Source: Gammaproteobacteria bacterium
Lineage (GTDB): Bacteria > Pseudomonadota > Gammaproteobacteria > Tethybacterales > CBDBMS01
Direction of reading: 5' to 3'
DNA length: 64,000 nt
Assembly: GCA_965207545.1 (NCBI GenBank)
Contig: CBDBMS010000003.1
Coordinates: 285,411-349,410 of the forward strand
Positions 6,480 through 64,000 of the stretch are shown one piece after another; the stretch's first letter is position 1; each line of letters begins with the position of its first letter. A program made the position numbers and the translations under genes. The notes below the pieces were generated by a model that was not told the origin of the DNA, did not search any database, and worked only from the letters and a program-made list of their open reading frames with translations.

Positions 6480-7523
6480 ATGAAAAAGTCCATCCTCGGT
6501 CCGCTGGCCACATCGGCAGTGTCAGCCCTGCTGGCCTCGGCAGCGCTGGCTGAACGGGATCAGCTGATGATCGTCGGATCGTCGACCGTGTATCCGTTCT
6601 CAACGGTGGTTGCCGAACGCTTCGGCCGCAGCGGCTTTCGGAACCCGACAGTGGAGTCAACCGGAACCGGCGGCGGAATGAAGCTTTTCTGCAAGGGGAT
6701 CGGCACCGACAGTCCGGACATCACCAACGCCTCGCGGCGGATGAAGAAGTCGGAGTTCGAAAGCTGCCGGGCGAACGGCGTTGACGAGGTCATCGAGGTG
6801 CTCGTCGGCTACGACGGGATTGTGATTGCCAACACCAGGAAAGCGCCCCGTCTCGATGTCAGTCTCAGGGACATCTATCTTGCCTTGGCCAAGGACATTC
6901 CCGACCCTTCGGGCAAGGAGGATTTCATCCCGAACCCGCACACCACCTGGAGCGACGTCAACCCGTCCCTCCCGAATGTCAATATCCGCGTCTACGGACC
7001 GCCTCCGACATCGGGCACGAGGGATGCGTTTGCCGAGCTTGCCCTTGAAGGAGGTTGCAAGACCTTCGGCTGGGTCAGGGATCTGAAGAAAGAGGACAAG
7101 AGTCTGTACAAGGTCCGTTGTCGGTCGGTCCGCGAGGACGGCCCCTACGTCGAGGCAGGCGAAAACGACAATCTGATCATCCAGAAGCTGGTTTCGGACA
7201 GGAATACGTTCGGGATCTTTGGCTACAGCTTTCTTGACCAGAACTCGGACAAGGTTCAAGGCGCTTATGTCGACAGCAATGCTCCGGAGTTCGAGCTGAT
7301 TGCAAGCGGCGACTATCCGGTGAGCCGGCCACTCTACTTTTATGTCAAGAGGGCACACCTGGATGCGATGCCCGGTCTGGCCGAGTACGTCAACGAGTTC
7401 CTGGGCGACCGGGCCATCGGCGAGGACGGCTATCTGGTTGACCGCGGCCTGATTCCGCTCAGCAAAGGTCAGCGTGAGGAGTACTCGCTCGGCGTGAGCT
7501 CACTCGGCAACATCTCCCTGTAG
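6480..7523 (+). CDS. pstS: phosphate ABC transporter substrate-binding protein PstS
   Basis: Signal peptide MKKSILGPLATSAVSALLASAALA, then a PstS-family domain (GSSTVYPF...SRPLYFYVK). AGGAG ribosome-binding site. First gene of pstSCAB-phoU. Confidence 0.85.
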   Translation: MKKSILGPLATSAVSALLASAALAERDQLMIVGSSTVYPFSTVVAERFGRSGFRNPTVESTGTGGGMKLFCKGIGTDSPDITNASRRMKKSEFESCRANGVDEVIEVLVGYDGIVIANTRKAPRLDVSLRDIYLALAKDIPDPSGKEDFIPNPHTTWSDVNPSLPNVNIRVYGPPPTSGTRDAFAELALEGGCKTFGWVRDLKKEDKSLYKVRCRSVREDGPYVEAGENDNLIIQKLVSDRNTFGIFGYSFLDQNSDKVQGAYVDSNAPEFELIASGDYPVSRPLYFYVKRAHLDAMPGLAEYVNEFLGDRAIGEDGYLVDRGLIPLSKGQREEYSLGVSSLGNISL

Positions 7524-8940: not shown

Positions 8941-10219
8941 CAGTCCGGCATCCCGCAACATCACGGATCGGGTGAAACATGGTCTTGGCCGCCGCTACGC
9001 GCTGGAGGCCGTCTTCCGTTATGCAGGCCTTGCGGCAATTGGCTTCGCCACCTTGTGCGTTGTGGTTCTGCTGTCGTCGATTGCGGTGAAGGCATCGGGA
9101 GCCTTCACCCAGTCCTACATCAATGTTGAGCTGGACCTGGATCGGGAGACTCTTCAGATAGGCGCCCCCTCTTCCGACGAGATTATGGGTGCGAACTACC
9201 GTTCCGTCATCCGGAAGGGCCTGCAGGCTGTTTTCCCCGAAGTTCGCGGTCGCAGGGAGGTGAGGGAACTGACCTCGCTTCTGAGTCCGCAAGCCGAACT
9301 TCAGGTGCGCGATCGGCTGCTGGCCGATCCGGACCTGCTCGGCCGCAAGGTGTCGCTGGACCTGCTTGCATCGGCGGATGCAGACATCCAGTACCGACAG
9401 TTCCACGGAACCGGTGAGGATTTCGGCCGCATGAAGGGGCGTCAGGTGGAGATGCTCAGTACATTGATCCGGGCAGGGCAGGTGTCGACCAGGTTCAACC
9501 ACCACTTCTTCACCAGGGGGGATTCCCGCGATCCGGAAATCGCCGGCGTTCTGGGAGCCGTCATGGGCTCTTTTCTCACGCTGCTGGTTGTCGGGATGCT
9601 GTCGTTTCCGATCGGGGTCTGCGCCGCAATCTATCTGGAGGAGTTTGCGGCGCGGAACAGGTGGACCGACATCATTGAGGTGAACATCAACAATCTGGCG
9701 GCGGTTCCGTCGATCATATTCGGCCTGCTCGGGCTTGCCATCTTCATCAACCTGGCCGGCATGCCCCGGTCGGCGCCGCTGGTTGGCGGACTCGTTCTGA
9801 CGTTGATGACCCTTCCGACGGTGATCATCGCGTCACGGGCCGCGATCAAGTCGGTTCCCATGGCGATCCGCGAAGCGTCTCTCGGCATGGGAGCGTCAAA
9901 GATGCAGATGGTGTTCCACCAGGTTGTGCCGGCGGCCATGCCCGGCATCCTGACAGGCACGATTATCGGCATGGCTCAGGCGCTTGGCGAGACTGCGCCG
10001 CTGCTGATGATCGGCATGGTGGCGTTCATAGTCGACGTTCCGACGGGCGTGTTTGATTCGGCGACAACTCTTCCGGTCCAGATATTCCTCTGGGCGGACA
10101 GTCCCGAACGTGCGTTTGTGGAACGCACCTCGGCAGCGATCATGGTGCTTCTCGGCTTCCTGTTCCTGATGAACCTGTCGGCCGTGCTCCTACGCAAAAA
10201 GTTTGAAATCAGATGGTGA
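8927..10219 (+). CDS. pstA: phosphate ABC transporter permease PstA
   Basis: 430 aa, GTG start overlapping the pstC end by 14 nt. Permease core ([18 protein letters not shown]...). Confidence 0.85.
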
Positions 10220-52900: not shown

Positions 52901-53809
52901 GACTCAATAAGCTTTAGGACAGCCAGCTTTGCCGATCAGACCAATACGGTCACTATAAGTTGGGACAGCACTCCCGTCTTGATAGTTACACCGCCATCGC
53001 CAGGTTCAAATGCCGACTTCGGTTTTGATGCGACTGCTGCGTCTTTCAGGCAGGGCGCCAATCTTCTCGATGTGGCTGACAGGATCATCACGGTTGGCTT
53101 TGATTACGATTATGACAACCCAGCCCAGCCAGGCGGCTTTATGGGTCGAATACCCGCTCCCTTACTCACACTCACTGTCACCGGTTTGCAGACTCAAGTG
53201 AGCTTGGACACCAGCATACGCGGCAGCCAGTGCTCGTGGACTACCAACGGCTTGGGATGTGTTTATAACATGAGTGACTCGGGAACTGAGGGCATGTTCA
53301 GCGACACGTTGCTTATGACCTTGAAAATGGCGGGGAGACAGGGGACAAGTGCGATCACGCTTCAATGGACTCATCCCGTCTCGGGAACGAGCGCCGACGT
53401 GCTTACACTGACTCCGGCTGCACCGGCGGAGAGCTTGCGGTTCGATCCGATGACGGTTACATACACGCCTTCCTCTGGAACAACACCGGCATCTCTAGGT
53501 GATGTGACCCTCAACTACAACTCCGCCTCCGATTCGGCGGTCAGACAGTTTGTCACAATCACCTGGAACGCCTCTAATATGTCTTCGATTGACGAGATCG
53601 AGTTTCGTAACAGGTACATAGGCGTTAACCAGACGGCAACGCTCAGTCCCACGGAGACGACCGCTACGGTCGGTGTTGAAGGCAACTACGGCATTCTCTC
53701 ATCTGCCGTTACCATTTACGCAACGGATCCAAGTTCCCTTGGATCCGAGACGGTTGAAATCGACTGGGAGGGCGATACCGTTCTTGAGATTGAGGCGGCA
53801 ACACCATGA
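46964..53809 (+). CDS. giant (2281 aa) type IV prepilin-like protein with a long repeat-containing C-terminal extension
   Basis: Likely start ATG at 46979 (ATGA overlap with the upstream stop). ...RTRAGG|FTIVEMAIVLVVLGLLLSS has Gly-1, Phe+1 and Glu+5. GRPYLPCPDIDGDGLEDR and WGRLYIYRV motifs. The C-terminal third contains ~245-aa degenerate internal repeats and is AT-richer. Confidence 0.65.
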   Translation: MGALAMRDCVSRFSRSFRTGRKGADCPGFRTRAGGFTIVEMAIVLVVLGLLLSSALTPLRHRWENGKYEDERERIEQRRQALVAYATQNRTEERTVVLEDLGWSYTIPAGRPYLPCPDIDGDGLEDRLATSGLPDSGTAITLESASNFRGIAAAGGCQHYQGLFPWGSVGTEANDTWGRLYIYRVHPSFSNNVSGFDHLTRADVYDETSGLVVSTVTVNYAGKDLVPTSAISNDSIRFLYNTELSDQATVTVTTYQSLYESTATTTTATINGVTAVLVHDERPFGVCAPGVRAAAGATVTMSAHCPDADAVAGVALTMSTASNVVEFDPPRTGISGPLLVRAYMGSDNGADADDIPRSFKEGVVFGVVSTGQNGYGGFVRNAAGGLACGSHPVPDEPSPEVMHLSLLKNVSGHCSTLPTSYAPHYEGNLYYLPRTEPTTFEADSETSSPVGFDDVIGWMGPDEFVGKLARQDVFPVEMYPYIGLPLDSTTVAMSVAPALGVDYTGAPGSSVTIDPARDASGSARFVGRTDPPLPLSDGTTISLTVQVDQEDGNTTQVPFRFDTEDVTLTLEATGAPCVDDMDTPLPEITGGDSCLISVTGRVPADILLSVTGVTVDDFVNAAATIQMVPFIGTSPTVSLAHPSVAILTPNSAAGSIVFAPSDVFYTPAVAPGLEMLATLQALYIPEADGVPQTLTLEAASIPAGVTLTLGGVPSCISVGVNMCEYRFGGMTTEFDATLSAQDLTTAASFSVTVAGGGAVLTIRTRTAPFVDEFRVLGGSAATTYFRTGAPVLKRFALKGGGLQPLERLTVTVSISSNRMTSSEKFINTDISVATPEAECYDNVMVPPVQATMVGHGDHCVFELTGSNEARFLLRLNELRPELITLTTTPTGLELALRETTSTAPGVYFDPRVLPYITATPTPGATRLAGATLHVSTGTGAAPSSDFVFTLTSAPPSPIVLAAAFAAGVTPSTCSFSGGTTLCALTVASTSLPSGTYETDVTVDLTSVQELVSAGTPTLTILWEAHPVLLTRPIPNTNPYLSFLPDTASFPAAVNPENRPFGLVTMDYGNLAGNRDITLSATGLPALAALTLEEGVLTPLTCRITAGTPCTVSVANDLGAVVFMGSIENAHVLSAGDTVTVQWNGNDVLEVEALPAQPLNVVGSPATVRYAPTPPGRGILQAFERVTVDYSPVDPALTSITLAITASGLQTGNSLSGDPMLPGQNVQFTPAASVQPVTLTTTTPGDFTFSLNLTLAPNRLETGSTMALSAEGLPFLSIQPATLGFMPASVGYVNAPGGMRSLFDVNLIYSGNVSAAVANVFLEHEGFDFPQASDRFLLSLNTTPPETCDLHRNAPATCDWTFPLTGGMANIPVDVSQFSDIGGGTAYLKYRGVTVLTFMPAMPTLSISPNMATFDSLLDGAQPAIARFSYSQGHPGALATDVTLTVSGIRAGNSHVLQATGINCFLGADGECAFSFTTGSDGTYNLDPFAVTQFDRDSQGPHPITVSWNGQEIFVWTPIPPSISANPDRFQFRAGTSGNNSDRVSPPVTVTYSSRDVNLSEAVLTVTASGLASGATIAMDLDIMPAQSCSFTRVAAECVVTLESPSSTGEFEQELRTTLENPVAQGDANMTLSTIDTDFYILAPASVTLGFAPNSGLFDQLGIGRRDHRPAFSYSQGLPGASNTTVTLTVSGLMGTGNGLNMDVGTNSCSLGQLIGTFECELTFTTQADGTFSASSLLRLLRVQDQDGNPVTISWDGQEVFVFEPTPPSISASPDSSAFTPTATPQVFRSVLSYASRDTGLSRATITVTASGLQTNVTVRSRFDTSPRRTCDFTTVASQCVLTLSGPDSSGTFDHEMTVTLRNPDDQGQSNVTLSWEDNDFYTLSVPMSLLSFTPRGLLFPFNVEAVRIAGFYNQRPPAFSYYTSSGAGTYDVTLAESGLQTGNQIFLNLDRFGVDECSLVEDGTCSFAVTVGANNFASFDSISFRTASFADQTNTVTISWDSTPVLIVTPPSPGSNADFGFDATAASFRQGANLLDVADRIITVGFDYDYDNPAQPGGFMGRIPAPLLTLTVTGLQTQVSLDTSIRGSQCSWTTNGLGCVYNMSDSGTEGMFSDTLLMTLKMAGRQGTSAITLQWTHPVSGTSADVLTLTPAAPAESLRFDPMTVTYTPSSGTTPASLGDVTLNYNSASDSAVRQFVTITWNASNMSSIDEIEFRNRYIGVNQTATLSPTETTATVGVEGNYGILSSAVTIYATDPSSLGSETVEIDWEGDTVLEIEAATP

Positions 53810-55248
53810 TGAAGCGGGCCACATCACCGGCAACAGGTTCAGGTGCGGGCAGTCGCAGCGCCTTTGGTTTCTTCCGGATCGGTCTTGGTCCGTCGAGTTC
53901 CCATACTGTGGGTCCGATGCGTGCGGCCCGTGACTTCTGTGTTGATCTGCGTGACAAGGGCGTTCTGGAGAGCGTATCGCGCGTCCAGGCGTTTCTGCAT
54001 GGTTCGCTGGCGGCGACCGGAGTGGGACATGGCACCGATCGCGCCGTAGTTCTCGGCCTCTCAGGCGAAGTCCCCGAGGAAGTTGATCCGGTTGCGGCGG
54101 TGGAACTCGTGGAATCGGTTCGTGCACAAGGGAGAATCAGGCTTCTTGGTGTCCATGAGGTCGAGTTTGACATGTCGAAAGACATTGTCATGATCCGCCG
54201 TCCGTTGCCAACCCATCCGAACGGAATGGTTTTCGAGGCGGCGGATGCCTCTGACAGGAAATTGGGCAAGGCTGAACGCTATTCGGTTGGCGGCGGGTTT
54301 GTTACTGGTCCTGAAGATTCCGCCGGAGAGGAACAGGAAAACGTTGAATATCCATATCCTTTTGGCACCGGTGTGGAGCTTCTTGCAATGTGTGCACGGA
54401 AGGGCCTATCGGTGTCGGAGCTGATGATGGCGAATGAATGTGCACAAGGACTCGATGAGAGCGAAGTCCGTGCAGGACTGCTTGCCGTCTGGAATGCGAT
54501 GGTTGCTTGCATAGATGCGGGTTGTTCGAACAGTGGGATCCTTCCGGGTGGTCTTAGGGTGCGTCGCCGCGCACCGGATCTGTATGCGCAGCTGAAGACG
54601 GAGCACGGCTCGAACACCGACGACCTGCATATCTTGGACTGGGTTAACCTCTATGCGTTGGCGGTGAACGAAGAGAATGCGGCTGGCGGCCGCGTGGTGA
54701 CCGCACCGACAAATGGTGCGGCTGGGGTGGTTCCAGCGGTGTTGCGCTACTTTTCGGACTTTCGCGTTGCTAGGGCAGGACGTTGCATGGAGGACGAAAT
54801 AGTGTCGTTTCTGCTTGCTGCCGCGGCGGTGTGCGTCCTGTTCAAGCGCAATGCATCAATATCAGGAGCCGAGGTCGGATGCCAGGGCGAGATTGGTTCG
54901 GCATGTGCAATGGCTGCTGCGGGTTTGACGGAGGTTTCCGGCGGCACGCCGGAACAGGTGGAGAATGCCGCTGAAATAGGGCTTGAGCACAATCTTGGCC
55001 TAACTTGTGATCCGGTTGGAGGGCTTGTACAGATCCCGTGCATAGAGCGTAATGCTCAGGCGGCCGTCAAGGCGATCAATGCTTCCCGCATAGCGTTGCG
55101 TGGCGATGGCACACATCAGGTCTCGCTGGACCAGGTGATCAAGACAATGTGGAACACCGGACAGGACATGAAGCTTAAGTACAAGGAGACCGCTCGCGGA
55201 GGACTGGCTGCTACGGTTAAAATACCAGTGAATGTGGTTGAATGTTAG
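53806..55248 (+). CDS. sdaA: L-serine dehydratase (iron-sulfur, single-chain)
   Basis: [19 protein letters not shown]...[33 protein letters not shown]...[26 protein letters not shown]...[22 protein letters not shown] is collinear with SdaA. Start and stop both overlap the flanking prepilin-like genes. Confidence 0.88.
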
Positions 55249-56780
55249 GCATGGACAGCAAAGGGAAGAATAGGCTTGGTTGCGCGGGTGTGTCTCAGCG
55301 GGGCTACTCGCTGGTCGAGTTAGCCATTGTTCTGGCAGCTTTGGGGCTGTTTCTGGGTGGTGCGACGGTGCCCCTGTTTCAGCTCTACCGTAATTCCGCC
55401 ATTGACAAGACGGAGCAGCGCTTGGCGGATGTACATGCGGCGATAGCGGGTTATGCGGTCCGCCATAGGACTCCCGGACTTAGATATGTCGTAGAGACGC
55501 AGATTACCGATGCTTCGGGCAATCGGAGGTCGGATACGCGTTCCTACTGGATTCCCGCCAATCGACCCTATCTTCCGTGCCCGGACTACAACAGCGATGG
55601 CATTGAGAACAGAGTTGATCCGATGGCGGTTATCATGAGTCAGTTGATCAATGGGCATGTTGTTGATGTCAAGCCGGTCACTCTTAATCCGGCTGCGACG
55701 TATCCCTTGCTTCAGGAGATGCAGAATGAGAAGGATTTCACCACTGCAAATGCAGGAGTGAGAATGCGGTCGCTGGCTGAATATGGCGTGTGTGCGCACC
55801 ATCCGGGACATACCAGTGATTCGTCAAACTCGCACAATGCCAATGACCGGGGAGTGTTGCCTTGGCGTACACTCGGGGTTCTGCCGACGGATCGTTGGGG
55901 TGGAAGATTCACTTATCGTGCCGATACCGTTTACGCCTCGGCGCTTACTGGCTTTGGTCACGACACTTCGATCGACAGCTATGACCCTAGGGTGCCAATG
56001 CACTATCTCCAGAACGGCGGAAATCTGCGTCTCATGTCGCTGAGAAGGCCGTCAGTGTCGAATGGAGCTGCCGTCAACGATACCTTGACTCCCAAGTCCA
56101 TGGTGCCTTCAATGGTATGTTCGGAACCAGACTATAATGATGGCGGTGGAGAACGTCTTCACGTGTGCGATCCGGTTCGTCCTAATTCTACCGGTCTGAT
56201 TACCAGAATTAACTCGTCGATCAGTAGCTCCAACACTCAGCCTGAGCATGAGCTCCTTGTGGGAAGCGTTGCCACTGCCCAAGTTGGGCATACGCAGGAA
56301 AACATACGTCCGATACCGTTTCCTCTGGATCTTCTGACCGCGAGCAACCTTCCAGGTCACACATCGGCTGTACAGGTCGGAGGTGTTGTTGAAGGTCTCC
56401 CATACGTGGTTCTTTCCCATGGTCCGAACCAGCATTTTGCTGTTAAGCACCGCGAGGCGGCAGATGCTTTTGAAACCTTGTCCTCTTCGACCAGTCAGTG
56501 GAATCCTTGTCTTGTGGGTAGAGATTCCGTCAGAAGCAACGGCAGACTTAATACAGACGCCTCGATATTCGAGGCTCATAACAGTCCTTGTCCTGTGATA
56601 TACGCATCTGGCGCCAATAGGCAATATCCAACCTATCTGTTTGTCAAAAAGCTTGGCCCAAGTTGGGATGATGATTTCGATGACATCATTGAGTGGCGAA
56701 CCAGGAGCCAGCTTTTGGCCGATCTGTCTGAAGCTGGTGTCCTACCTGCTGCGGGTCTGCCATTGCTTTTAGTGCGTTAG
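55242..56780 (+). CDS. large (512 aa) type IV prepilin-like protein (class III signal peptide)
   Basis: ...GVSQRG|YSLVELAIVLAALGLFLGG has Gly-1 and Glu+5. NRPYLPCPDYNSDGIENR and WGGRFTYRA motifs. The 3' half is AT-richer. An alternative ATG at 55251 exists. Confidence 0.65.
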   Translation: MLGMDSKGKNRLGCAGVSQRGYSLVELAIVLAALGLFLGGATVPLFQLYRNSAIDKTEQRLADVHAAIAGYAVRHRTPGLRYVVETQITDASGNRRSDTRSYWIPANRPYLPCPDYNSDGIENRVDPMAVIMSQLINGHVVDVKPVTLNPAATYPLLQEMQNEKDFTTANAGVRMRSLAEYGVCAHHPGHTSDSSNSHNANDRGVLPWRTLGVLPTDRWGGRFTYRADTVYASALTGFGHDTSIDSYDPRVPMHYLQNGGNLRLMSLRRPSVSNGAAVNDTLTPKSMVPSMVCSEPDYNDGGGERLHVCDPVRPNSTGLITRINSSISSSNTQPEHELLVGSVATAQVGHTQENIRPIPFPLDLLTASNLPGHTSAVQVGGVVEGLPYVVLSHGPNQHFAVKHREAADAFETLSSSTSQWNPCLVGRDSVRSNGRLNTDASIFEAHNSPCPVIYASGANRQYPTYLFVKKLGPSWDDDFDDIIEWRTRSQLLADLSEAGVLPAAGLPLLLVR

Positions 56781-56979
56781 TTTCTAGCCTCTAGGCTTCT
56801 GATGATTGCCAAGTCTTCTTGGAAGCGCGGCTGACCATCGGATAAGGGGTTGTGCTTGATCAAAGTGCCGAGACTAGCTCCGGATTTCAAGGTTTCGCCG
56901 AGATGATGGATTCTTTTCCCACCTGTGCCTGTTGCTTTTGTTTGCGTGATGTTTACAGGTAGAATACCCAGTTCATTCA

Positions 56980-57005
56980 CCCCCCCCCCCCCCCCCCCCC
57001 CCCCC
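56980..57005 (+). repeat. homopolymeric poly(C) tract, 26 nt
   Basis: Uninterrupted C26 in the AT-rich intergenic region. It lies ~15 nt downstream of a TAGAAT hexamer and ~255 nt upstream of the first in-frame ATG of the tandem-repeat adhesin gene. Confidence 0.85.
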
Positions 57006-57260
57006 TTATTTTTGGTCTGACCGCTCAAAGACAAGTTGGAGGGCATCCAGCAGCAGCATAGTCAGTATTAGGGGTTGCCCTATTTATGCGTTGTATGTCT
57101 CACTGGTTAATTGTGTTGTCAAGGCATCCAGTAATTCCAGTGAGATTGTTGAACCACAATGTTACTCCATGCAATTACTGCAAAAAAGAATTGGCATTAC
57201 TCACAAATTTGTGTGGAGCATTGATCCTTGCAAAAAGTGAATTTCCAATTTCATTAAACC

Positions 57261-60200
57261 ATGCGTATGCATTATTTAGTACAGTGTGTACTGGTCATGA
57301 TTCTGCTGATCTTTCCGAATGCATTGACCCAGGAGGTGCTTCCTGCCATGTCTCGAATGCCTATGCTTCATTGCAATTTCGTAGGTGATAATGAATGCCC
57401 CGTAGGGAGTGCTGTCATTACAATCTCAAAGATGCCTATGACTGGCGAGGATGGTACAGATGATGAAATTAAAGTCGCATTAACGGTTATACCAGACAAC
57501 CTGGTCACGGTGTGGGTAACTAGTTCGGATCTTAGCGAGGCGGTGGTTTCACCAATGTCGTTGGTGTTTGATGAGATCAACTGGCGTAGTGGAGTGACGG
57601 TGACGGTGACGGGCATTGACGATGAGGTCGACGACGGTGACATTAACTACGAGATTCGCCTGTCGACGAGAGCTATTCCTGACGACCTCCACTATGCGGC
57701 AGTTCTGACGGCCAGCACGACCGGGACCAACAGCGACGACGACATGGCCGGCCTGTCGGTGCCGCCGGGGCGCCTGGCGACCAGCGAGGCGGGAGCCACG
57801 GCGCGGTTCCCGGTGTCGCTGTCGAGCGAGCCGACCGGTCTGGTGACGGTGTCGGTGTCCAGCTCGGATGCCGGCGAGGCGACGGCGGCGCCGCCGTCGC
57901 TGGTGTTTGATGCCGACAGCTGGGACACGGCGCTGACGGTGACGGTGACGGGCGTTGACGACGAGATTGACGACGGCGACGTCGCCTACGAGATCGACCT
58001 GTCGGTGAGCGCGGCGCCGGCCGGCAGCCCCTATGCGGGCCTGACGGCCGACGTGGCCGGGACCAACAGCGACGACAGCGACATGGCCGGCCTGTCGGTG
58101 CCGCCGGGGCGCCTGACGACCAGCGAGGCGGGAGCCACGGCGCGGTTCACGGTGTCGCTGTCGAGCGAGCCGACCGGCCCGGTGACGGTGACGGTGTCCA
58201 GCTCGGATGCCGGCGAGGCGACGGCGGCGCCGCCGTCGCTGGTGTTTGACGCCGACAGCTGGGACACGGCGCTGACGGTGACGGTGACGGGCGTCGACGA
58301 CGAGATTGACGACGGCGACGCCGACTACGAGATCGACCTGTCGGTGAGCGCCTCGCCGGCCGGCAGCCCCTACGCGGGCCTGACGGCCGACGTGGCCGGA
58401 ACCAACAGCGACGACGACATGGCCGGCCTGTCGGTGCCGCCGGGGCGCTTGGCGACCAGCGAGGCGGGAGGCACGGCACGGTTCACGGTGTCGCTGGCGA
58501 GCGAGCCGACCGGCCCGGTGACGGTGTCGGTGTCCAGCTCGGATGCCGGCGAGGCGACGGCGGCGCCGTCGTTGCTGGTGTTTAACGCCGGCAGCTGGGA
58601 CACGGCGCTGACGGTGACGGTGACGGGCATTGACGACAAGATTGACGACGGCGACGTCGACTACGGGATCCGCCTGTCGGTGAGCGCGGCGCCGGCCGGC
58701 AGCCCCTATAAGAGGATGTTGATTACGGTACTAGGAACAAATTCGGACGATGATACGGGCGAATTGCTAGTTCCTTCGACCTCCTTTTTAACTGATGAGG
58801 ATGGAGGGCAAGGAGTTTTCGCAGTTAGCCTTTCCAGCAATCCGTTTGGAATGGTGACGGTATCAGTGACAAGTGGTGATTTAACGGAAGGCATTCCCAC
58901 ATTGCCAACACTAGTGTTCAGCCCGTCAAATTGGAATGTAGGACTTTCCGTAACAGTTTTGGGACAGGATGATACCATTGCAGACGGAGATACGAAGTAT
59001 AAGATAAGTCTTTCGGTAAGCGGAGTAGATGAGGGGAGTGTATACACAGGTTCCACAGCTATTGTCACTGGCATTAACGCTGAAAACGAGACGATTGAAA
59101 TAATCACTTCTCCAGATTTTGTAAGGACGGGGGAGGGGGGCGTGAATGCAATGATTACCGTTAAGCTCTCAAGCAAACCAAGAGGTGCAGTGTATGTACA
59201 GGTAGACAGTTCTAATGACGCGGAGGCAAGAGTTTCTCAGACACTGAGGTTCCGCAAGGCAACCTGGAATATTGGACAAACACTCGAGGTGTTAGGTGTA
59301 GATGATAATGTTGCGGATGGTGTGATTGGCTATGAGATCTTTCTGATAGCTCAGGCATCAAAAAGAAACCCTTATCGTAATGTAAGAACAACAGTTTTAG
59401 GGAGCAATGCGGATGATGAACTAGCTGAACTGGTAATTGATTCATCATCTATTGCAACTGGTGAAGATGGCGCAACAGATAGTTTTAAAGTGTCGCTGTC
59501 GAGCGAGCCGACCGGCCTGGTGACGGTGTCGGTGTCCAGTTCGGATGCCGGCGAGGCGACGGCGTCGCCGCCGTCGCTGGTGTTTGACGCCGACAGCTGG
59601 GAGACGGCGCTGACGGTGACGGTGACGGGCGTCGACGACGAGATCGACGACGGCGACGTCGCCTACGAGATCGAACTGTCGGTGAGCGCGGCGCCGGCCG
59701 GCAGCCCCTACGTGGGCCTGACGGCCGAGGTGGCCGGGACCAACAGCGACGACAGCGACATGGCGGGCCTGTCGGTGCCGCCGGGGCGCCTGGCGACCAG
59801 CGAGGCGGGAGCCACGGCGCGGTTCACGGTGTCGCTGTCGAGCGAGCCGACCGGCCTGGTGACGGTGTCGGTGTCCAGTTCGGATGCCGGCGAGGCGACG
59901 GCGACGCCGCCGTCGCTGGTGTTTGACGCCGACAGCTGGGACACGGCGCTGACGGTGACGGTGACGGGCGTCGACGACGAGATCGACGACGGCAGCGTCG
60001 CCTACGAGATCGAGCTGTCGGTGAGCGCGGCGCCGGCCGGCAGCCCCTACGCGGGCCTGACGGCCGAGGTGGCCGGGACCAACAGCGACGACAGCGACAT
60101 GGCGGGCCTGTCGGTGCCGCCGGGGCGCCTGGCGACCAGCGAGGCGGGAGCCACGGCGCGGTTCACGGTGTCGCTGTCGAGCGAGCCGATCGGCCTGGTG

Positions 60201-63200
60201 ACGGTGTCGGTGTCCAGTTCGGATGCCGGCGAGGCGACGGCGGCGCCGTCGTCGCTGGTGTTTGACGCCGACAGCTGGGACACGGCGCTGACGGTGACGG
60301 TGACGGGCGTCGACGACGAGATCGACGACGGCAACGTCGCCTACGAGATCAAGCTGTCGGTGAGCGCGGCGCCGGCCGGCAGCCCCTACGTAGGCCTGAC
60401 GGCCGACGTGGCCGGGACCAACAGCGACGACAGCGACATGGCGGGCCTGTCGGTGCCGCCGGGGCGCCTGGCGACCAGCGAGGCGGGAGCCACGGCGCGG
60501 TTCACGGTGTCGCTGTCGAGCGAGCCGATCGGCCTGGTGACGGTGTCGGTGTCCAGTTCGGATGCCGGCGAGGCGACGGCGGCGCCGTCGTCGCTGGTGT
60601 TTGACGCCGACAGCTGGGACACGGCGCTGACGGTGACGGTGACGGGCGTCGACGACGAGATCGACGACGGCAGCGTCGCCTACGAGATCGAGCTGTCGGT
60701 GAGCGCGGCGCCGGCCGGCAGCCCCTACGCGGGCCTGACGGCCGACGTGGCCGGGACCAACAGCGACGACAGCGACATGGCCGGCCTGTCGGTGCCGCCG
60801 GGGCGCCTGGCGACCAGCGAGGCGGGAGCCACGGCGCGGTTCACGGTGTCGCTGGCGAGCGAGCCGACCGGCCTGGTGACGGTGTCGGTGTCCAGTTCGG
60901 ATGCCGGCGAGGCGACGGCGGCGCCGTCGTCGCTGGTGTTTGACGCCGACAGCTGGGACACGGCGCTGACGGTGACGGTGACGGGCGTCGACGACGAGAT
61001 TGACGACGGCAGCGTCGCCTACGAGATCGAGCTGTCGGTGAGCGCGGCGCCGGCCGGCAGCCCCTACGTGGGCCTGACGGCCGACGTGGCCGGGACCAAC
61101 AGCGACGACAGCGACATGGCGGGCCTGTCGGTGCCGCCGGGGCGCCTGGCGACCAGCGAGGCGGGAGCCACGGCGCGGTTCACGGTGTCGCTGTCGAGCG
61201 AGCCGACCGGCCCGGTGACGGTGTCGGTGTCCAGTTCGGATGCCGGCGAGGCGACGGCGGCGCCGTCGTCGCTGGTGTTCGGCGCCGACAGCTGGGACAC
61301 GGCGCTGACGGTGACGGTGACGGGCGTCGACGACGAGATCGACGACGGCAGCGTCGCCTACGAGATCGAGCTGTCGGTGAGCGCGGCGCCGGCCGGCAGC
61401 CCCTACGTGGGCCTGACGGCCGACGTGGCCGGGACCAACAGCGACGACAGCGACATGGCCGGCCTGTCGGTGCCGCCGGGGCGCCTGGCGACCAGCGAGG
61501 CGGGAGCCACGGCGCGGTTCACGGTGTCGCTGGCGAGCGAGCCGACCGGCCTGGTGACGGTGTCGGTGTCCAGTTCGGATGCCGGCGAGGCGACGGCGGC
61601 GCCGTCGTCGCTGGTGTTTGACGCCGACAGCTGGGACACGGCGCTGACGGTGACGGTGACGGGCGTCGACGACGAGATCGACGACGGCAGCGTCGCCTAC
61701 GAGATCGAGCTGTCGGTGAGCGCGGCGCCGGCCGGCAGCCCCTACGCGGGCCTGACGGCCGACGTGGCCGGGACCAACAGCGACGACAGCGACATGGCGG
61801 GCCTGTCGGTGCCGCCGGGGCGCCTGGCGACCAGCGAGGCGGGAGCCACGGCGCGGTTCACGGTGTCGCTGTCGAGCGAGCCGACCGGCCTGGTGACGGT
61901 GTCGGTGTCCAGTTCGGATGCCGGCGAGGCGACGGCGGCGCCGTCGTCGCTGGTGTTCGGCGCCGACAGCTGGGACACGGCGCTGACGGTGACGGTGACG
62001 GGCGTCGACGACGAGATCGACGACGGCAGCGTCGCCTACGAGATCGAGCTGTCGGTGAGCGCGGCGCCGGCCGGCAGCCCCTACGTGGGCCTGACGGCCG
62101 AGGTGGCCGGGACCAACAGCGACGACAGCGACATGGCGGGCCTGTCGGTGCCGCCGGGGCGCCTGGCGACCAGCGAGGCGGGAGCCACGGCGCGGTTCAC
62201 GGTGTCGCTGGCGAGCGAGCCGACCGGCCTGGTGACGGTGTCGGTGTCCAGTTCGGATGCCGGCGAGGCGACGGCGGCGCCGTCGTCGCTGGTGTTTGAC
62301 GCCGACAGCTGGGACACGGCGCTGACGGTGACGGTGACGGGCGTCGACGACGAGATCGACGACGGCAGCGTCGCCTACGAGATCGAGCTGTCGGTGAGCG
62401 CGGCGCCGGCCGGCAGCCCCTACGCGGGCCTGACGGCCGAGGTGGCCGGGACCAACAGCGACGACAGCGACATGGCGGGCCTGTCGGTGCCGCCGGGGCG
62501 CCTGGCGACCAGCGAGGCGGGAGCCACGGCGCGGTTCACGGTGTCGCTGTCGAGCGAGCCGACCGGCCTGGTGACGGTGTCGGTGTCCAGTTCGGATGCC
62601 GGCGAGGCGACGGCGGCGCCGTCGTCGCTGGTGTTTGACGCCGACAGCTGGGACACGGCGCTGACGGTGACGGTGACGGGCGTCGACGACGAGATCGACG
62701 ACGGCAGCGTCGCCTACGAGATCGAGCTGTCGGTGAGCGCGGCGCCGGCCGGCAGCCCCTACGTAGGCCTGACGGCCGACGTGGCCGGGACCAACAGCGA
62801 CGACAGCGACATGGCCGGCCTGTCGGTGCCGCCGGGGCGCCTGGCGACCAGCGAGGCGGGAGCCACGGCGCGGTTCACGGTGTCGCTGTCGAGCGAGCCG
62901 ACCGGCCCGGTGACGGTGTCGGTGTCCAGTTCGGATGCCGGCGAGGCGACGGCGGCGCCGTCGTCGCTGGTGTTCGGCGCCGACAGCTGGGACACGGCGC
63001 TGACGGTGACGGTGACGGGCGTCGACGACGAGATTGACGACGGCAGCGTCGCCTACGAGATCGAGCTGTCGGTGAGCGCGGCGCCGGCCGGCAGCCCCTA
63101 CGCGGGCCTGACGGCCGACGTGGCCGGGACCAACAGCGACGACAGCGACATGGCGGGCCTGTCGGTGCCGCCGGGGCGCCTGGCGACCAGCGAGGCGGGA

Positions 63201-64000
63201 GCCACGGCGCGGTTCACGGTGTCGCTGTCGAGCGAGCCGACCGGCCTGGTGACGGTGTCGGTGTCCAGCTCGGATGCCGGCGAGGCGACGGCGACGCCGC
63301 CGTCGCTGGTGTTTGACGCCGACAGCTGGGACACGGCGCTGACGGTGACGGTGACGGGCGTCGACGACGAGATCGACGACGGCAGCGTCGCCTACGAGAT
63401 CGAGCTGTCGGTGAGCGCGGCGCCGGCCGGCAGCCCCTACGCGGGCCTGACGGCCGAGGTGGCCGGGACCAACAGCGACGACAGCGACATGGCGGGCCTG
63501 TCGGTGCCGCCGGGGCGCCTGGCGACCAGCGAGGCGGGAGCCACGGCGCGGTTCACGGTGTCGCTGTCGAGCGAGCCGATCGGCCTGGTGACGGTGTCGG
63601 TGTCCAGTTCGGATGCCGGCGAGGCGACGGCGGCGCCGTCGTCGCTGGTGTTTGACGCCGACAGCTGGGACACGGCGCTGACGGTGACGGTGACGGGCGT
63701 CGACGACGAGATCGACGACGGCAACGTCGCCTACGAGATCAAGCTGTCGGTGAGCGCGGCGCCGGCCGGCAGCCCCTACGTAGGCCTGACGGCCGACGTG
63801 GCCGGGACCAACAGCGACGACAGCGACATGGCGGGCCTGTCGGTGCCGCCGGGGCGCCTGGCGACCAGCGAGGCGGGAGCCACGGCGCGGTTCACGGTGT
63901 CGCTGTCGAGCGAGCCGATCGGCCTGGTGACGGTGTCGGTGTCCAGTTCGGATGCCGGCGAGGCGACGGCGGCGCCGTCGTCGCTGGTGTTTGACGCCGA
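57261..64000 (+). CDS. giant tandem-repeat surface adhesin-like protein (Calx-beta / cadherin-like ~113-aa repeats), 5' portion; ORF continues beyond the window end
   Basis: Frame opens after a TAA at 57255. The first ATG is at 57261 with a plausible Sec signal (MRMHYLVQCVLVMILLIFPNALTQ). The ORF then consists of repeats of ...GLSVPPGRLATSEAGATARFTVSLSSEPTGLVTVSVSSSDAGEATAAPSSLVFDADSWDTALTVTVTGVDDEIDDGSVAYEIELSVSAAPAGSPYAGLTADVAGTNSDDSDMA. It is not in the ORF track because it has no stop within the window. The minus-strand 78-95-aa ORFs at 339-nt spacing are antisense artefacts. Confidence 0.6.
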   Translation, partial: MRMHYLVQCVLVMILLIFPNALTQEVLPAMSRMPMLHCNFVGDNECPVGSAVITISKMPMTGEDGTDDEIKVALTVIPDNLVTVWVTSSDLSEAVVSPMSLVFDEINWRSGVTVTVTGIDDEVDDGDINYEIRLSTRAIPDDLHYAAVLTASTTGTNSDDDMAGLSVPPGRLATSEAGATARFPVSLSSEPTGLVTVSVSSSDAGEATAAPPSLVFDADSWDTALTVTVTGVDDEIDDGDVAYEIDLSVSAAPAGSPYAGLTADVAGTNSDDSDMAGLSVPPGRLTTSEAGATARFTVSLSSEPTGPVTVTVSSSDAGEATAAPPSLVFDADSWDTALTVTVTGVDDEIDDGDADYEIDLSVSASPAGSPYAGLTADVAGTNSDDDMAGLSVPPGRLATSEAGGTARFTVSLASEPTGPVTVSVSSSDAGEATAAPSLLVFNAGSWDTALTVTVTGIDDKIDDGDVDYGIRLSVSAAPAGSPYKRMLITVLGTNSDDDTGELLVPSTSFLTDEDGGQGVFAVSLSSNPFGMVTVSVTSGDLTEGIPTLPTLVFSPSNWNVGLSVTVLGQDDTIADGDTKYKISLSVSGVDEGSVYTGSTAIVTGINAENETIEIITSPDFVRTGEGGVNAMITVKLSSKPRGAVYVQVDSSNDAEARVSQTLRFRKATWNIGQTLEVLGVDDNVADGVIGYEIFLIAQASKRNPYRNVRTTVLGSNADDELAELVIDSSSIATGEDGATDSFKVSLSSEPTGLVTVSVSSSDAGEATASPPSLVFDADSWETALTVTVTGVDDEIDDGDVAYEIELSVSAAPAGSPYVGLTAEVAGTNSDDSDMAGLSVPPGRLATSEAGATARFTVSLSSEPTGLVTVSVSSSDAGEATATPPSLVFDADSWDTALTVTVTGVDDEIDDGSVAYEIELSVSAAPAGSPYAGLTAEVAGTNSDDSDMAGLSVPPGRLATSEAGATARFTVSLSSEPIGLVTVSVSSSDAGEATAAPSSLVFDADSWDTALTVTVTGVDDEIDDGNVAYEIKLSVSAAPAGSPYVGLTADVAGTNSDDSDMAGLSVPPGRLATSEAGATARFTVSLSSEPIGLVTVSVSSSDAGEATAAPSSLVFDADSWDTALTVTVTGVDDEIDDGSVAYEIELSVSAAPAGSPYAGLTADVAGTNSDDSDMAGLSVPPGRLATSEAGATARFTVSLASEPTGLVTVSVSSSDAGEATAAPSSLVFDADSWDTALTVTVTGVDDEIDDGSVAYEIELSVSAAPAGSPYVGLTADVAGTNSDDSDMAGLSVPPGRLATSEAGATARFTVSLSSEPTGPVTVSVSSSDAGEATAAPSSLVFGADSWDTALTVTVTGVDDEIDDGSVAYEIELSVSAAPAGSPYVGLTADVAGTNSDDSDMAGLSVPPGRLATSEAGATARFTVSLASEPTGLVTVSVSSSDAGEATAAPSSLVFDADSWDTALTVTVTGVDDEIDDGSVAYEIELSVSAAPAGSPYAGLTADVAGTNSDDSDMAGLSVPPGRLATSEAGATARFTVSLSSEPTGLVTVSVSSSDAGEATAAPSSLVFGADSWDTALTVTVTGVDDEIDDGSVAYEIELSVSAAPAGSPYVGLTAEVAGTNSDDSDMAGLSVPPGRLATSEAGATARFTVSLASEPTGLVTVSVSSSDAGEATAAPSSLVFDADSWDTALTVTVTGVDDEIDDGSVAYEIELSVSAAPAGSPYAGLTAEVAGTNSDDSDMAGLSVPPGRLATSEAGATARFTVSLSSEPTGLVTVSVSSSDAGEATAAPSSLVFDADSWDTALTVTVTGVDDEIDDGSVAYEIELSVSAAPAGSPYVGLTADVAGTNSDDSDMAGLSVPPGRLATSEAGATARFTVSLSSEPTGPVTVSVSSSDAGEATAAPSSLVFGADSWDTALTVTVTGVDDEIDDGSVAYEIELSVSAAPAGSPYAGLTADVAGTNSDDSDMAGLSVPPGRLATSEAGATARFTVSLSSEPTGLVTVSVSSSDAGEATATPPSLVFDADSWDTALTVTVTGVDDEIDDGSVAYEIELSVSAAPAGSPYAGLTAEVAGTNSDDSDMAGLSVPPGRLATSEAGATARFTVSLSSEPIGLVTVSVSSSDAGEATAAPSSLVFDADSWDTALTVTVTGVDDEIDDGNVAYEIKLSVSAAPAGSPYVGLTADVAGTNSDDSDMAGLSVPPGRLATSEAGATARFTVSLSSEPIGLVTVSVSSSDAGEATAAPSSLVFDA
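57405..64000 (+). repeat. tandem array of ~339-bp (113-codon) coding repeats, about 19-20 units in the window; units after ~59500 are near-identical
   Basis: Periodic recurrence of the same 339-nt unit (minus-strand ORF ends at 59944, 60283, 60622 ... 63673 give an exact 339-nt period). The ~58690-59500 block holds diverged, AT-richer units. Confidence 0.85.

What the first reader, a model, noticed from the sequence alone, without database searches (positions are those of the whole stretch)
56980..57005. 26-nt poly(C) homopolymer immediately upstream of the giant repeat-adhesin gene — candidate slipped-strand phase-variation switch
- An uninterrupted run of 26 C lies in an AT-rich intergenic region. 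It sits ~15 nt downstream of a -10-like TAGAAT (56960-56965) and ~255 nt upstream of the first in-frame ATG (57261) of the tandem-repeat adhesin.
- Long poly-C/G tracts are hypermutable by slipped-strand mispairing and are an established ON/OFF switch for surface-antigen genes, for example the C-tracts in Bordetella fim promoters and poly-G/C tracts in Neisseria and Campylobacter.
- A C26 tract is far beyond what occurs by chance in a 62% GC genome. Its placement in front of an adhesin-like gene fits a phase-variable promoter or leader.
Basis: partly seen in the sequence, partly recalled or inferred. Interest (0 to 1): 0.7.

Follow-up and report, generated by a model that had tools for sequence, protein, structure and literature searches.

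The report
Long poly-C tract before giant adhesin
A run of 26 cytosines really does sit just upstream of a giant repeat surface-protein gene, and near-identical 22- and 27-C runs sit at the 5' end of related giant genes in two unrelated uncultured bacteria, so it is most likely a hypermutable on/off (or volume) switch for an expensive adhesin, though switching itself could not be tested.

Summary
C26 lies at 56980-57005 and is the only homopolymer of 8 nt or more in the 64 kb window (chance about 4e-10). It sits in a 480-nt AT-rich gap, 255 nt before ATG 57261 of a Calx-beta-like giant ORF (339-nt units x18.6) that runs off the window.

New evidence: loci were fetched only by protein similarity to that ORF's N-terminus. 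Two of them, from different hosts (flank GC 0.44 and 0.72, against 0.60 here), carry sense-strand C22 (L005) and C27 (L013) at the 5' end of their giant genes. These three are the only homopolymers of 9 nt or more in about 264 kb examined. The tract is therefore real and tied to this gene family, not an artefact or a chance event.

In L013 the tract lies inside the 5' ORF, in frame. In L005 an upstream ATG is in frame only at C20/23/26. In the window no tract length can fuse an upstream start to the giant ORF, so any coupling must act through the promoter or leader.

The best reading is a slipped-strand contingency tract (confidence about 0.5). Length variation could not be tested: there are no reads and no close strains. 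The closest precedents are the Bordetella fim C-stretches (up to C22) and the Moraxella uspA1 G tract. It is a new member of a known kind, in environmental bacteria.

The parts
56980..57005 (+). Uninterrupted C26 homopolymer (G26 on the - strand). It is poly-C on the sense strand of the downstream giant gene.
   Evidence: It is the only homopolymer of 8 nt or more in the window, with a chance expectation of about 4e-10.
56781..57260 (+). A 480-nt AT-rich intergenic and leader region between the prepilin-like gene and the giant ORF. GC is 0.43 without the tract: 0.48 to its left and 0.40 to its right.
   Evidence: There is no Rfam family and no consensus + strand promoter or intrinsic terminator. 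The 321-nt leader fold is not exceptional (z -1.5), and most of the tract is unpaired in the minimum-energy fold and all of it in the centroid.
56960..56965 (+). TAGAAT, a -10-like hexamer 14 nt upstream of the tract. Its best -35 partner by eye is TTGTTT at a 16-nt spacing, 8 of 12 matches overall.
   Evidence: It was not reported by the consensus scan. Its function is inferred only.
57007..57012 (+). TATTTT, an alternative -10-like hexamer 1 nt after the tract. This would give a Bordetella fim-like layout, with the C-stretch just upstream of a -10. It has no -35 and no TG extension.
   Evidence: read by eye. This is an inference.
56925..57020 (+). A short ORF that reads through the tract as poly-Pro: GTG 56925 or ATG 56949, giving ..MFTGRIPSSFT-P8-LFLV*. 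It has no Shine-Dalgarno sequence and is probably not translated.
57007..57240 (+). A frame that stays open for 77 codons from the tract to TGA 57238-57240, 20 nt before ATG 57261. It joins the upstream ATG or GTG only at tract lengths of C22, C25 or C28. It never joins the giant ORF.
   Evidence: The chance of such an open frame is 0.013 by mononucleotide shuffling and 0.07 by a first-order Markov model, so this is suggestive only.
57261..64000 (+). Giant repeat surface-protein ORF, open to the window end (at least 2246 codons). It has an N-terminal signal-peptide-like segment, MRMHYLVQCVLVMILLIFPNALT|QE, followed by Calx-beta-like domains. An alternative start at ATG 57348 follows an AGGAGG.
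   Evidence: (Calx-beta E 1.7e-17, 64 bits against a cut-off of 27).
57721..64000 (+). Tandem array of 339-nt (113-aa) units, 18.6 copies within the window, at GC about 0.73. It has a higher-order repeat: an exact 731-nt repeat at an offset of 3390 nt, which is 10 units.
55242..56780 (+). Upstream neighbour: a 512-aa protein with a prepilin-type N-terminal cleavage/methylation motif (G|YSLVELAIVLA). It is the last gene of a + strand row running from 36124 to 56780, and it ends 199 nt before the tract.
   Evidence: TIGR02532, 19 bits against a cut-off of 16.3. Relatives keep the operon but not the giant gene or the tract.

Best explanation
The C26 run is a genuine hypermutable homopolymer, a contingency tract. 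It belongs to the 5' control region of the giant Calx-beta-like surface-protein gene.

**Proposed mechanism**
- During replication the tract gains or loses C residues by slipped-strand mispairing. At 26 nt this should happen at very high frequency, so the population carries a mix of lengths.
- Different lengths would give different expression of a very costly adhesin, either on/off or graded.
- In this window the coupling cannot be a frameshift of the adhesin ORF itself. It must act before or at the leader.

**Possible routes in this window**
1. Altered geometry of a promoter that flanks the tract (TAGAAT 14 nt upstream, or TATTTT 1 nt downstream).
2. An altered property of the C-rich 5' leader RNA.
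3. A change in how far an upstream reading frame is translated across the 255-nt leader, which would change how exposed the leader is to Rho.

In the two related loci the same kind of tract sits inside, or immediately in front of, the signal-peptide coding segment. There, a classical translational frame switch is possible.

**What is shown and what is inferred**
- Shown: the tract exists, is not a chance event, recurs at the same place in three unrelated genomes, always on the sense strand, and has the frame relationships described.
- Inferred: hypermutability (from established knowledge of homopolymer slippage) and any effect on expression.
For: 1. The tract is real and exceptional.
2. It recurs independently.
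   - Loci were fetched by protein homology to the giant ORF's N-terminus, not by any DNA feature.
   - L005 has C22 at 7161-7182, 27 nt before a TTG start with an AGGA Shine-Dalgarno. That start opens a signal-peptide plus Calx-beta-like ORF.
   - L013 has C27 at 9388-9414 inside the ORF MFRRVAYS-P8-...-signal peptide. No ATG, GTG or TTG lies between the tract and the signal peptide.
3. These three tracts are the only homopolymers of 9 nt or more in the 64 kb window plus about 200 kb of fetched loci. Four loci show the 5' end of a multi-kb repeat gene of this family, and three of them carry a tract.
4. The hosts differ: flank GC is 0.44, 0.60 and 0.72, the neighbouring genes differ, and the leaders cannot be aligned. 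The feature is therefore conserved or convergent, not one inherited accident.
5. All three tracts are poly-C on the sense strand. Each lies downstream of a promoter-like site: TAGAAT here, TTGACA-17-TAAAGT in L005 and TGGACA-16-TATGTT with a TG extension in L013 (0 expected in shuffles).
6. The frame logic in the relatives fits an ON/OFF design. L013 is in frame at C27. In L005 the ATG at 7145 is in frame only at C20, C23 or C26, and the assembly has C22.
7. There are precedents.
   - C-stretches of 20-22 nt in B. bronchiseptica fim2/fim3 promoters, and coding tracts in the surface-protein genes tcfA and bapC (PMC1891110).
   - A G(n) tract upstream of the uspA1 ORF that changes mRNA about 20-fold (PMC7302503).
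   - Homopolymers placed preferentially at the 5' ends of genes (PMC2831843).
Against: - No length polymorphism was observed. The source genome is not in the position index. The closest LeuRS relative is only 69% identical. An exact-flank search with a variable gap found nothing in metagenomes.
- The promoter is not mapped, and no consensus sigma-70 site brackets the tract here.
- The tract lies 255 nt from the start codon here, against 27 nt in L005 and intragenic in L013, so a single shared mechanism is not obvious.
- Known switches work with 8-15 nt. The convergent length of 22-27 nt hints at an additional or different constraint.
- Frame arguments are fragile. Homopolymer length in long-read consensus can be off by 1-2 nt, L013 has only about 5x coverage (from its contig name), and the L005 gene is broken by non-homopolymer frameshifts.
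- One relative with its 5' end visible (L006) has no tract.
Confidence: 0.5

Rival explanations
1. Fixed RNA-level element rather than a switch. The sense-strand poly-C is transcribed into an unstructured, C-rich, G-poor 5' leader. There it works as a very strong loading (rut) site for Rho, or for another C-binding factor. The giant gene would then be attenuated unless translation or an antiterminator protects the transcript. Tract length matters only above a threshold.
For: - All three tracts are C on the sense strand and lie downstream of promoter-like hexamers.
- The tract is largely unpaired in the minimum-energy fold of each leader, even in the 70% GC L013 leader.
- The C/G ratio is 3.1-4.6 in 78-nt windows over the tract and about 0.7-1.1 in the rest of the leader.
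- The convergent length of 22-27 nt is longer than a simple switch needs.
- Poly(C) is the classical strongest activator of Rho (own knowledge of Rho biochemistry).
- A 255-nt untranslated leader follows the tract here.
Against: - A rut site does not need a perfect homopolymer. An uninterrupted 26-mer is mutationally costly to maintain, yet no interruptions have accumulated in any of the three tracts.
- In L013 the tract appears to be translated, which would mask it from Rho when the gene is ON.
- No termination data are available.
- This reading is compatible with the switch model rather than exclusive of it.
Confidence: 0.2
2. The tract is real but currently has no function. It is a slippage-expanded remnant, for example of an ancestral poly-Pro-coding 5' ORF extension like the one in L013, left in the leader after the gene acquired its own start at 57261.
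For: - In the window the tract cannot be joined to the giant ORF at any length.
- The short ORF through the tract has no Shine-Dalgarno sequence.
- The L005 gene looks degraded by frameshifts.
- L006 does without a tract.
Against: - Uninterrupted 22-27-nt tracts are unstable. Without selection they should shrink or pick up interruptions, yet three lineages keep perfect runs of similar length at the same place.
- The giant ORF in the window is intact over 6.7 kb.
Confidence: 0.12
3. Sequencing or assembly artefact: a poly-G/C technical run or a chimeric join.
For: - Long C/G runs in public assemblies are often technical. Of 120 IMG/VR stretches with a C or G run of 22 nt or more, 95 lie within 100 nt of a stretch end.
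- The exact length of a 26-mer is uncertain in any long-read consensus.
Against: - The tract is internal to a contig of 1,583,133 nt.
- The adjoining 6.3-kb array has exact repeats up to 731 nt. That could hardly be assembled from short reads, so a two-colour poly-G artefact is unlikely (inference).
- Both flanks are non-coding, AT-rich and of similar composition, which is improbable for a random chimeric junction.
- The same feature appears at the same functional position in two other assemblies from other organisms and samples (ERZ21742408 and ERZ25068400).
- None of the IMG/VR tracts lies next to this domain family.
Confidence: 0.07
4. The tract serves the upstream operon, for example as a Rho-dependent terminator after the prepilin-like gene that ends at 56780, and is only next to the adhesin gene by accident.
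For: - It lies 199 nt after the stop of the last gene of a long co-directional row.
- No intrinsic terminator was found there.
Against: - Relatives that keep the same operon (L002, L003) have neither the tract nor the giant gene downstream.
- In L005 and L013 the genes upstream of the tract are divergently oriented, so the only shared partner is the downstream giant gene.
Confidence: 0.05

Closest known systems
Bordetella fimbrial promoter 'C-stretch' (fim2, fim3, fimX, fimN)
   Same: - It is a long uninterrupted poly-C in the upstream region of a surface-structure gene.
- Its length changes by slippage and sets transcript level.
- B. bronchiseptica RB50 carries C22 (fim3) and C20 (fim2), the same length class as C26, C22 and C27 here (PMC1891110).
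- A -10-like TATTTT follows the tract here by 1 nt.
   Different: - In Bordetella the stretch lies between an activator-binding region or 'fim box' and the -10 box of a small fimbrial subunit gene. Here no activator site or fim box is known.
- Promoter-like hexamers lie upstream of the tract in all three loci.
- The gene here is a giant Calx-beta-like repeat protein.
- The start codon is 255 nt away.
- The organisms are uncultured and environmental.
Moraxella catarrhalis uspA1 G(n) tract upstream of the ORF
   Same: A homopolymer upstream of an adhesin ORF whose length changes mRNA level in a graded way, with no frameshift: 21-fold between G10 and G12 (PMC7302503). This is the best analogue for a tract outside the ORF, as in this window.
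   Different: - The uspA1 tract is 8-13 nt of G.
- The target there is a trimeric autotransporter.
- Here the tract is twice as long and C on the sense strand.
- Its effect on mRNA is untested.
Intragenic 5' homopolymer frameshift switches (Bordetella tcfA and bapC; Neisseria, Campylobacter and Listeria inlA type)
   Same: The tract lies near the 5' end of a surface-protein ORF, so that a change of one base switches the reading frame. L013 fits this layout, with the tract in frame before the signal peptide. L005 fits it conditionally. Sources: PMC1891110 and PMC2831843.
   Different: In the window itself stops in all three frames separate the tract from ATG 57261, so this layout is not met here. 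The tracts are also much longer than the usual 7-17 nt.
Rho utilisation (rut) sites in long 5' leaders
   Same: A C-rich, G-poor, unstructured RNA segment near the 5' end of a long transcript. The untranslated leader downstream gives Rho room to act.
   Different: Natural rut sites are about 70-80 nt of mixed, C-biased sequence, not perfect homopolymers. No Rho dependence has been shown here.

Membership tests
Simple-sequence-repeat contingency locus (slipped-strand phase variation) | An uninterrupted homopolymer longer than the hypermutability threshold, roughly 8 nt or more of G/C | tested here: met
   C26 at 56980-57005.
Simple-sequence-repeat contingency locus (slipped-strand phase variation) | The tract lies in the promoter, 5' leader or 5' coding part of the controlled gene | tested here: met
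   The tract is 255 nt upstream of the first possible start of the giant ORF, in the only intergenic gap before it. The same position class is seen in L005 (27 nt before the start) and L013 (inside the 5' ORF).
Simple-sequence-repeat contingency locus (slipped-strand phase variation) | The controlled gene encodes a surface or host/environment-interaction protein | tested here: met
   A signal-peptide-like N-terminus and Calx-beta-like tandem domains. The protein's function as an adhesin is inferred from this architecture.
Simple-sequence-repeat contingency locus (slipped-strand phase variation) | Tract length varies within a population or between close strains | not testable with these tools
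   No reads are available. The source genome is absent from the position index. No close strain was found in genome or metagenome collections.
Simple-sequence-repeat contingency locus (slipped-strand phase variation) | A change in tract length changes expression of the gene | not testable with these tools
   This needs reporter fusions or paired length and expression data.
Bordetella fim-type promoter C-stretch | The C-stretch lies between an activator-binding region or fim box and the -10 box | tested here: inconclusive
   A weak -10-like TATTTT lies 1 nt after the tract. No consensus promoter was detected. No activator site is known for this organism. Promoter-like sites lie upstream of the tract in L005 and L013.
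Bordetella fim-type promoter C-stretch | The controlled gene is a fimbrial major subunit | tested here: not met
   The downstream gene is a giant Calx-beta-like repeat protein.
Intragenic 5' homopolymer frameshift switch | The tract is inside the ORF, so that a change of one base moves the protein in or out of frame | tested here: not met
   For tract lengths C18-C30, no frame links an upstream start through the tract to the ORF beginning at 57261, and an in-frame TAA lies at 57255. The feature is met in L013 and conditionally in L005.
uspA1-type homopolymer in the 5' untranslated region | The tract lies between the transcription start and the start codon | tested here: inconclusive
   TAGAAT 14 nt upstream would place the tract at about +8 to +33, but that hexamer fails the consensus scan and the transcription start is unmapped.
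Rho utilisation (rut) site | A C-rich, G-poor, unstructured RNA segment upstream of an untranslated stretch | tested here: met
   C/G is 3.1-4.6 in 78-nt windows over the tract. Most of the tract is unpaired in the minimum-energy fold. A 255-nt leader follows it.
Rho utilisation (rut) site | Rho-dependent termination downstream | not testable with these tools
   This needs Term-seq with and without bicyclomycin, or in vitro assays.
Poly-G/C sequencing or assembly artefact | The run lies at a contig end or joins unrelated sequence, and is not reproducible in independent data | tested here: not met
   The tract is internal to a 1.58-Mb contig. Both flanks are AT-rich and intergenic. It recurs at the same functional site in two other assemblies. 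By contrast, 95 of 120 IMG/VR runs lie at stretch ends.

The most novel reading that the evidence does not exclude
A conserved 5' module of giant Calx-beta-like adhesin genes in diverse uncultured bacteria: a sense-strand poly-C of 22-27 nt that does two jobs at once.

- As DNA, it is a hypermutable counter that changes the reading frame of a short 5' ORF. That ORF is fused to the signal peptide in L013 and L005. In this window it is a leader ORF that ends 20 nt before the adhesin start.
- As RNA, it is a near-ideal Rho loading site.

In OFF lengths the leader is left untranslated, and Rho aborts transcription of the tens-of-kb gene at its very beginning. The cell then pays nothing for a silent giant gene.

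The module may travel with the gene. The giant genes keep GC 0.60-0.68 in hosts of GC 0.44-0.72.
Probability: 0.12. Interest if true: 0.8.

Novelty: new member of a known kind. Interest (0 to 1): 0.6.

Why it matters
Contingency loci are known almost only from host-adapted pathogens and commensals. Here the same device appears in front of giant adhesin genes in three unrelated, uncultured environmental bacteria. At least one of them is a deep-branching gammaproteobacterium, whose closest LeuRS relative is 69% identical.

If the tracts do switch, stochastic control of very costly surface proteins is a general strategy outside pathogens. Long-read metagenomes, which preserve such tracts and report per-read lengths, could then be mined for it directly.

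The unusual and convergent tract length (22-27 nt) and its strict sense-strand orientation also raise a testable question: does a homopolymer act both as a mutational switch and as an RNA signal, for example for Rho?

Tried and rejected
**Searches for the source genome or close strains, to compare tract lengths**
- Exact-protein look-ups for window genes and for their database copies failed.
- Both genome-contig scans were uninformative: there was no relative of the pilin-like protein, and only a 57% sdaA match in a Hyphomonadaceae MAG.
- An exact-flank pattern with a variable gap found nothing in metagenome contigs.
- The second metagenome scan, an alignment query, was lost to a tool error.
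- Cluster look-ups gave no organism names.

**Known RNA elements**
- There was no Rfam family and no tRNA in the window.

**Consensus promoter and terminator**
- None was found on the + strand around the tract.

**Repeats, mobile-element ends or palindromes around the tract**
- Nothing meaningful was found.

**Minus-strand ORF 56777-57046 through the tract (poly-Gly)**
- It has an arbitrary-looking sequence and overlaps the pilin-like gene's end. I judged it spurious.

**Translational fusion of an upstream start to the giant ORF**
- This is excluded for C18-C30.

**Leader ORF after the tract**
- The open frame is only marginally unusual, p 0.013-0.07, so I kept it as a speculation only.

**Leader homology among the window, L005 and L006**
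- There is none. A shared 'CCCCTTATTTTT' in L006 is treated as coincidence.

**RfaH ops-like 'GGTAG' in ACAGGTAGAATA**
- Only about 6 of 12 consensus positions match by eye. I rejected it.

**IMG/VR scans**
- The alignment query gave 4 moderate-size genes without tracts.
- The C22 pattern gave mostly end-of-contig runs, none next to this domain family.

**PDB sequence search with a repeat pair**
- No match was found.

**Literature**
- No paper in the library links Calx-beta or giant adhesins with homopolymer switches.

Full report
**1. The observation**

The window has an uninterrupted run of 26 C at 56980-57005. A census of all homopolymers shows nothing else longer than 7 nt in the 64,000 bases. 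At the window's C frequency (0.288) the expected number of C26 runs is about 4e-10.

The run lies in a 480-nt gap (56781-57260) whose GC without the tract is 0.43, against 0.60 for the window. TAGAAT is at 56960-56965, 14 nt before the tract.

The giant ORF cannot start before ATG 57261, because an in-frame TAA lies at 57255. The tract is therefore 255 nt upstream of the coding sequence. It would be 342 nt upstream if the real start is ATG 57348, which is preceded by AGGAGG.

The ORF is open to the end of the window (2246 codons). It starts with a signal-peptide-like segment, contains a Calx-beta domain by Pfam (E 1.7e-17), and consists mostly of 339-nt tandem units (18.6 copies). GC is 60%, not 62%. 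The TAGAAT has no -35 partner good enough for a consensus scan.

**2. Context**

The window is chromosomal. It carries gshA, pstSCA, PEP synthase, trkAH, leuS, dapD and znuABC. The organism is a deep-branching, uncultured gammaproteobacterium. Its LeuRS is in the protein collection from a 1,583,133-nt contig. The next best match is 69% identical, and then 55-59% to assorted proteobacteria, mostly gammaproteobacterial where a name is given.

Upstream of the tract is a + strand row of overlapping genes, none with a Pfam hit except sdaA and the last gene:
- a 3093-aa protein;
- a 526-aa protein and a 2281-aa protein, both with prepilin-like N-termini;
- an L-serine dehydratase;
- a 512-aa protein with a prepilin-type N-terminus.

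Two relatives keep this row but are followed by unrelated genes. L002 has a methyltransferase, toxin-antitoxin genes and a transposase fragment; L003 has an MFS transporter. Neither has a giant gene or a homopolymer. The tract therefore goes with the giant gene, not with the pilin-like operon.

**3. Real or artefact?**

- The tract is internal to a megabase contig.
- The neighbouring 6.3-kb array contains exact repeats up to 731 nt. That implies long-read assembly (inference) and argues against a two-colour poly-G artefact.
- Both flanks are non-coding, AT-rich and similar in composition, which is unlikely for a random chimeric join.
- For comparison, 95 of 120 stretches in IMG/VR with a C or G run of 22 nt or more have it within 100 nt of a stretch end. 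Technical runs are common, but they look different.
- The exact length, 26 give or take 1-2, remains uncertain in any long-read consensus.

**4. Recurrence: the key new result**

I searched the protein collection with the first 230 residues of the giant ORF. I then fetched the genomic context of several hits, chosen only by protein similarity.

*L005* (ENA ERZ21742408, a 1,783,595-nt contig):
- It carries C22 at 7161-7182, at the end of a 480-nt AT-rich gap of GC 0.34.
- The tract lies 27 nt before a TTG start with an AGGA Shine-Dalgarno. That start opens MIPRQHLRRLAATLGLIFFIICVLPGTAQA|AKG, followed by Calx-beta-like repeats and a continuation of more than 3600 aa.

*L013* (ENA ERZ25068400, a 90-kb contig):
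- It carries C27 at 9388-9414.
- The ORF from TTG 9366 reads MFRRVAYS-P8-...RVSARAVALLLLAIAAGGAAGPAAAQ|DTY, followed by the same repeat family.
- No ATG, GTG or TTG lies between the tract and the signal peptide.

*How strong the association is:*
- Across the window plus about 200 kb of fetched loci, these three are the only homopolymers of 9 nt or more.
- With a profile of the domain, four loci show the 5' end of a multi-kb gene of this family. Three have a tract. The fourth (L006, a Nanopore assembly polished with Pilon, judging by its contig name) does not.
- The hosts are clearly different. Flank GC is 0.44 (L005), 0.60 (window) and 0.72 (L013), the neighbouring genes differ, and the leaders do not align.
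- In L005 and L013 the upstream genes are divergent, so the only common partner of the tract is the downstream giant gene.
- All three tracts are C on the sense strand.

**5. Anatomy relative to transcription and translation**

Promoter-like sites lie upstream of the tract in the relatives:
- L005 has TTGACA-17-TAAAGT, ending 26 nt before the tract.
- L013 has TGGACA-16-TATGTT with a TG extension, about 275 nt before the tract, where shuffles give none.
- In the window only the weak TAGAAT is available upstream, with a weak TATTTT immediately downstream.

In RNA folds of all three leaders the tract is largely unpaired. In the window the C/G ratio over the tract is 3.1-4.6, against about 0.7-1.1 further down the leader.

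Frame analysis gives three different pictures:
- In L013 the tract is inside the ORF and in frame at C27.
- In L005 the upstream ATG at 7145 (MIIKVT-Pn-) is in frame with the signal-peptide ORF only at C20, C23 or C26. The assembly has C22, although a TTG start after the tract is also available.
- In the window no length from C18 to C30 connects an upstream start to the giant ORF. At C22, C25 or C28 an ORF from GTG 56925 or ATG 56949 would run 77 codons past the tract to a TGA 20 nt before ATG 57261. That open frame is only marginally unusual (p 0.013-0.07), and the upstream starts lack a Shine-Dalgarno sequence.

**6. Interpretation**

The tract is real, non-random and specifically associated with the 5' end of giant Calx-beta-like surface-protein genes.

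The best-supported mechanism is a slipped-strand contingency tract that makes expression of a very costly adhesin heterogeneous in the population. This rests on three things:
- established knowledge that slippage rises steeply with homopolymer length;
- the target being a surface protein;
- the frame layout in L013 and L005.

In this window the coupling must be pre-translational or leader-mediated. I put this at about 0.5.

The rivals are:
- **Fixed RNA signal (about 0.2).** The poly-C would act most plausibly as a Rho loading site. This is favoured by the strict sense-strand orientation, the unpaired state and the convergent length of 22-27 nt. It is compatible with, rather than exclusive of, the switch.
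- **Functionless remnant (about 0.12).** This is hard to square with three perfect runs of similar length.
- **Artefact (about 0.07).**
- **Terminator for the upstream operon (about 0.05).** This is contradicted by the relatives.

**7. Comparison with known systems**

- The closest are the Bordetella fim promoter C-stretches. They reach C20-C22 in B. bronchiseptica RB50 and set transcript levels. The coding-region tracts of the Bordetella surface-protein genes tcfA and bapC are also close (PMC1891110).
- For a tract outside the ORF, the best analogue is the G(n) tract upstream of Moraxella uspA1, which changes mRNA about 20-fold (PMC7302503).
- Homopolymers at the 5' ends of genes as inactivation devices are widespread (PMC2831843).

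The defining feature of a contingency locus, observed length variation linked to expression, could not be tested. The fim-type and intragenic sub-types are not met in this window. I therefore file it as working like a contingency tract, with membership unproven.

I found no paper in the library linking Calx-beta or giant adhesins to homopolymer switches.

**8. Verdict**

This is a new member of a known kind. What is notable is its length, its recurrence across unrelated uncultured bacteria and its attachment to giant adhesin genes. Interest is 0.6.

The decisive test is cheap: count per-read tract lengths in the long-read data of the three samples.

Noticed in passing
window 36124-56780 (+): This is an operon-like row of overlapping genes.
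- It encodes proteins of 3093, 526, 2281 and 512 aa, none with a Pfam domain beyond an N-terminal prepilin-type motif. The motifs are GYSIVELTIVLV in the 526-aa protein, GFTIVEMAIVLV in the 2281-aa protein and GYSLVELAIVLA in the 512-aa protein.
- These look like giant pilin- or pseudopilin-like proteins.
- An L-serine dehydratase gene (53806-55248) is embedded between them.
- The synteny, including sdaA, is kept in a distant relative, L002.
   Followed up: partly
window 57721-64000: The 339-nt repeat array has GC about 0.73, against 0.60 for the genome, and only 0.53-0.58 in the divergent first and middle units. It also has a higher-order repeat: an exact 731-nt match at an offset of 3390 nt, which is 10 units. 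This suggests recent block duplication or gene conversion.
   Followed up: partly
L005 7183-17191; L013 9415-11275; window 57261-64000: The giant genes have GC 0.60-0.68 whatever the host flank GC (0.44, 0.72, 0.60). In L005 the jump from 0.34 to 0.60 happens exactly at the C22 tract. This suggests either horizontal transfer of the gene, perhaps together with its tract, or a strong compositional constraint on the repeat domain.
   Followed up: partly
L005 7210-9436: The giant gene of L005 is split into at least four ORFs by frameshifts. One that I examined is a 1-nt insertion in a non-homopolymer context, relative to the next repeat copy. The gene is either decaying or carries consensus errors in its repeats, which weakens any frame argument for that locus.
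   Followed up: partly
L013 8400-8960: The 1-kb GC-rich gap upstream of the C27 tract contains several direct repeats. About 45 nt of '...gatcttcgagcttcccggaac...' occurs three times, and about 50 nt of 'cgtcctgggagcggcgcgtcctgacggacgcgggcgtcccgcccgca' occurs twice. Their role is unknown (by eye).
   Followed up: no
L006 9716-9735: About 95 nt upstream of the homologous giant gene's ATG in L006, the sequence 'CTACCCCTTATTTTTTC' resembles the 3' junction of the window tract (C26-TTATTTTTGG). The surrounding leaders do not align, so I treat this as coincidence. L006 appears to be a Nanopore assembly polished with Pilon (from its contig name), so a collapsed tract cannot be strictly excluded.
   Followed up: partly
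IMG/VR loci L014-L133: Of 120 viral-contig stretches with a C or G run of 22 nt or more, 95 have it within 100 nt of a stretch end. This is the signature of technical poly-G/C or of assembly breaks. The other 25 are internal and were not examined further.
   Followed up: no
window 57331-57350: A strong Shine-Dalgarno sequence (AGGAGG) lies 11 nt before the in-frame ATG 57348, whereas ATG 57261 has none. If 57348 is the real start, the protein has no N-terminal signal peptide and would need another export route, for example type I secretion. The C-terminus lies outside the window.
   Followed up: no
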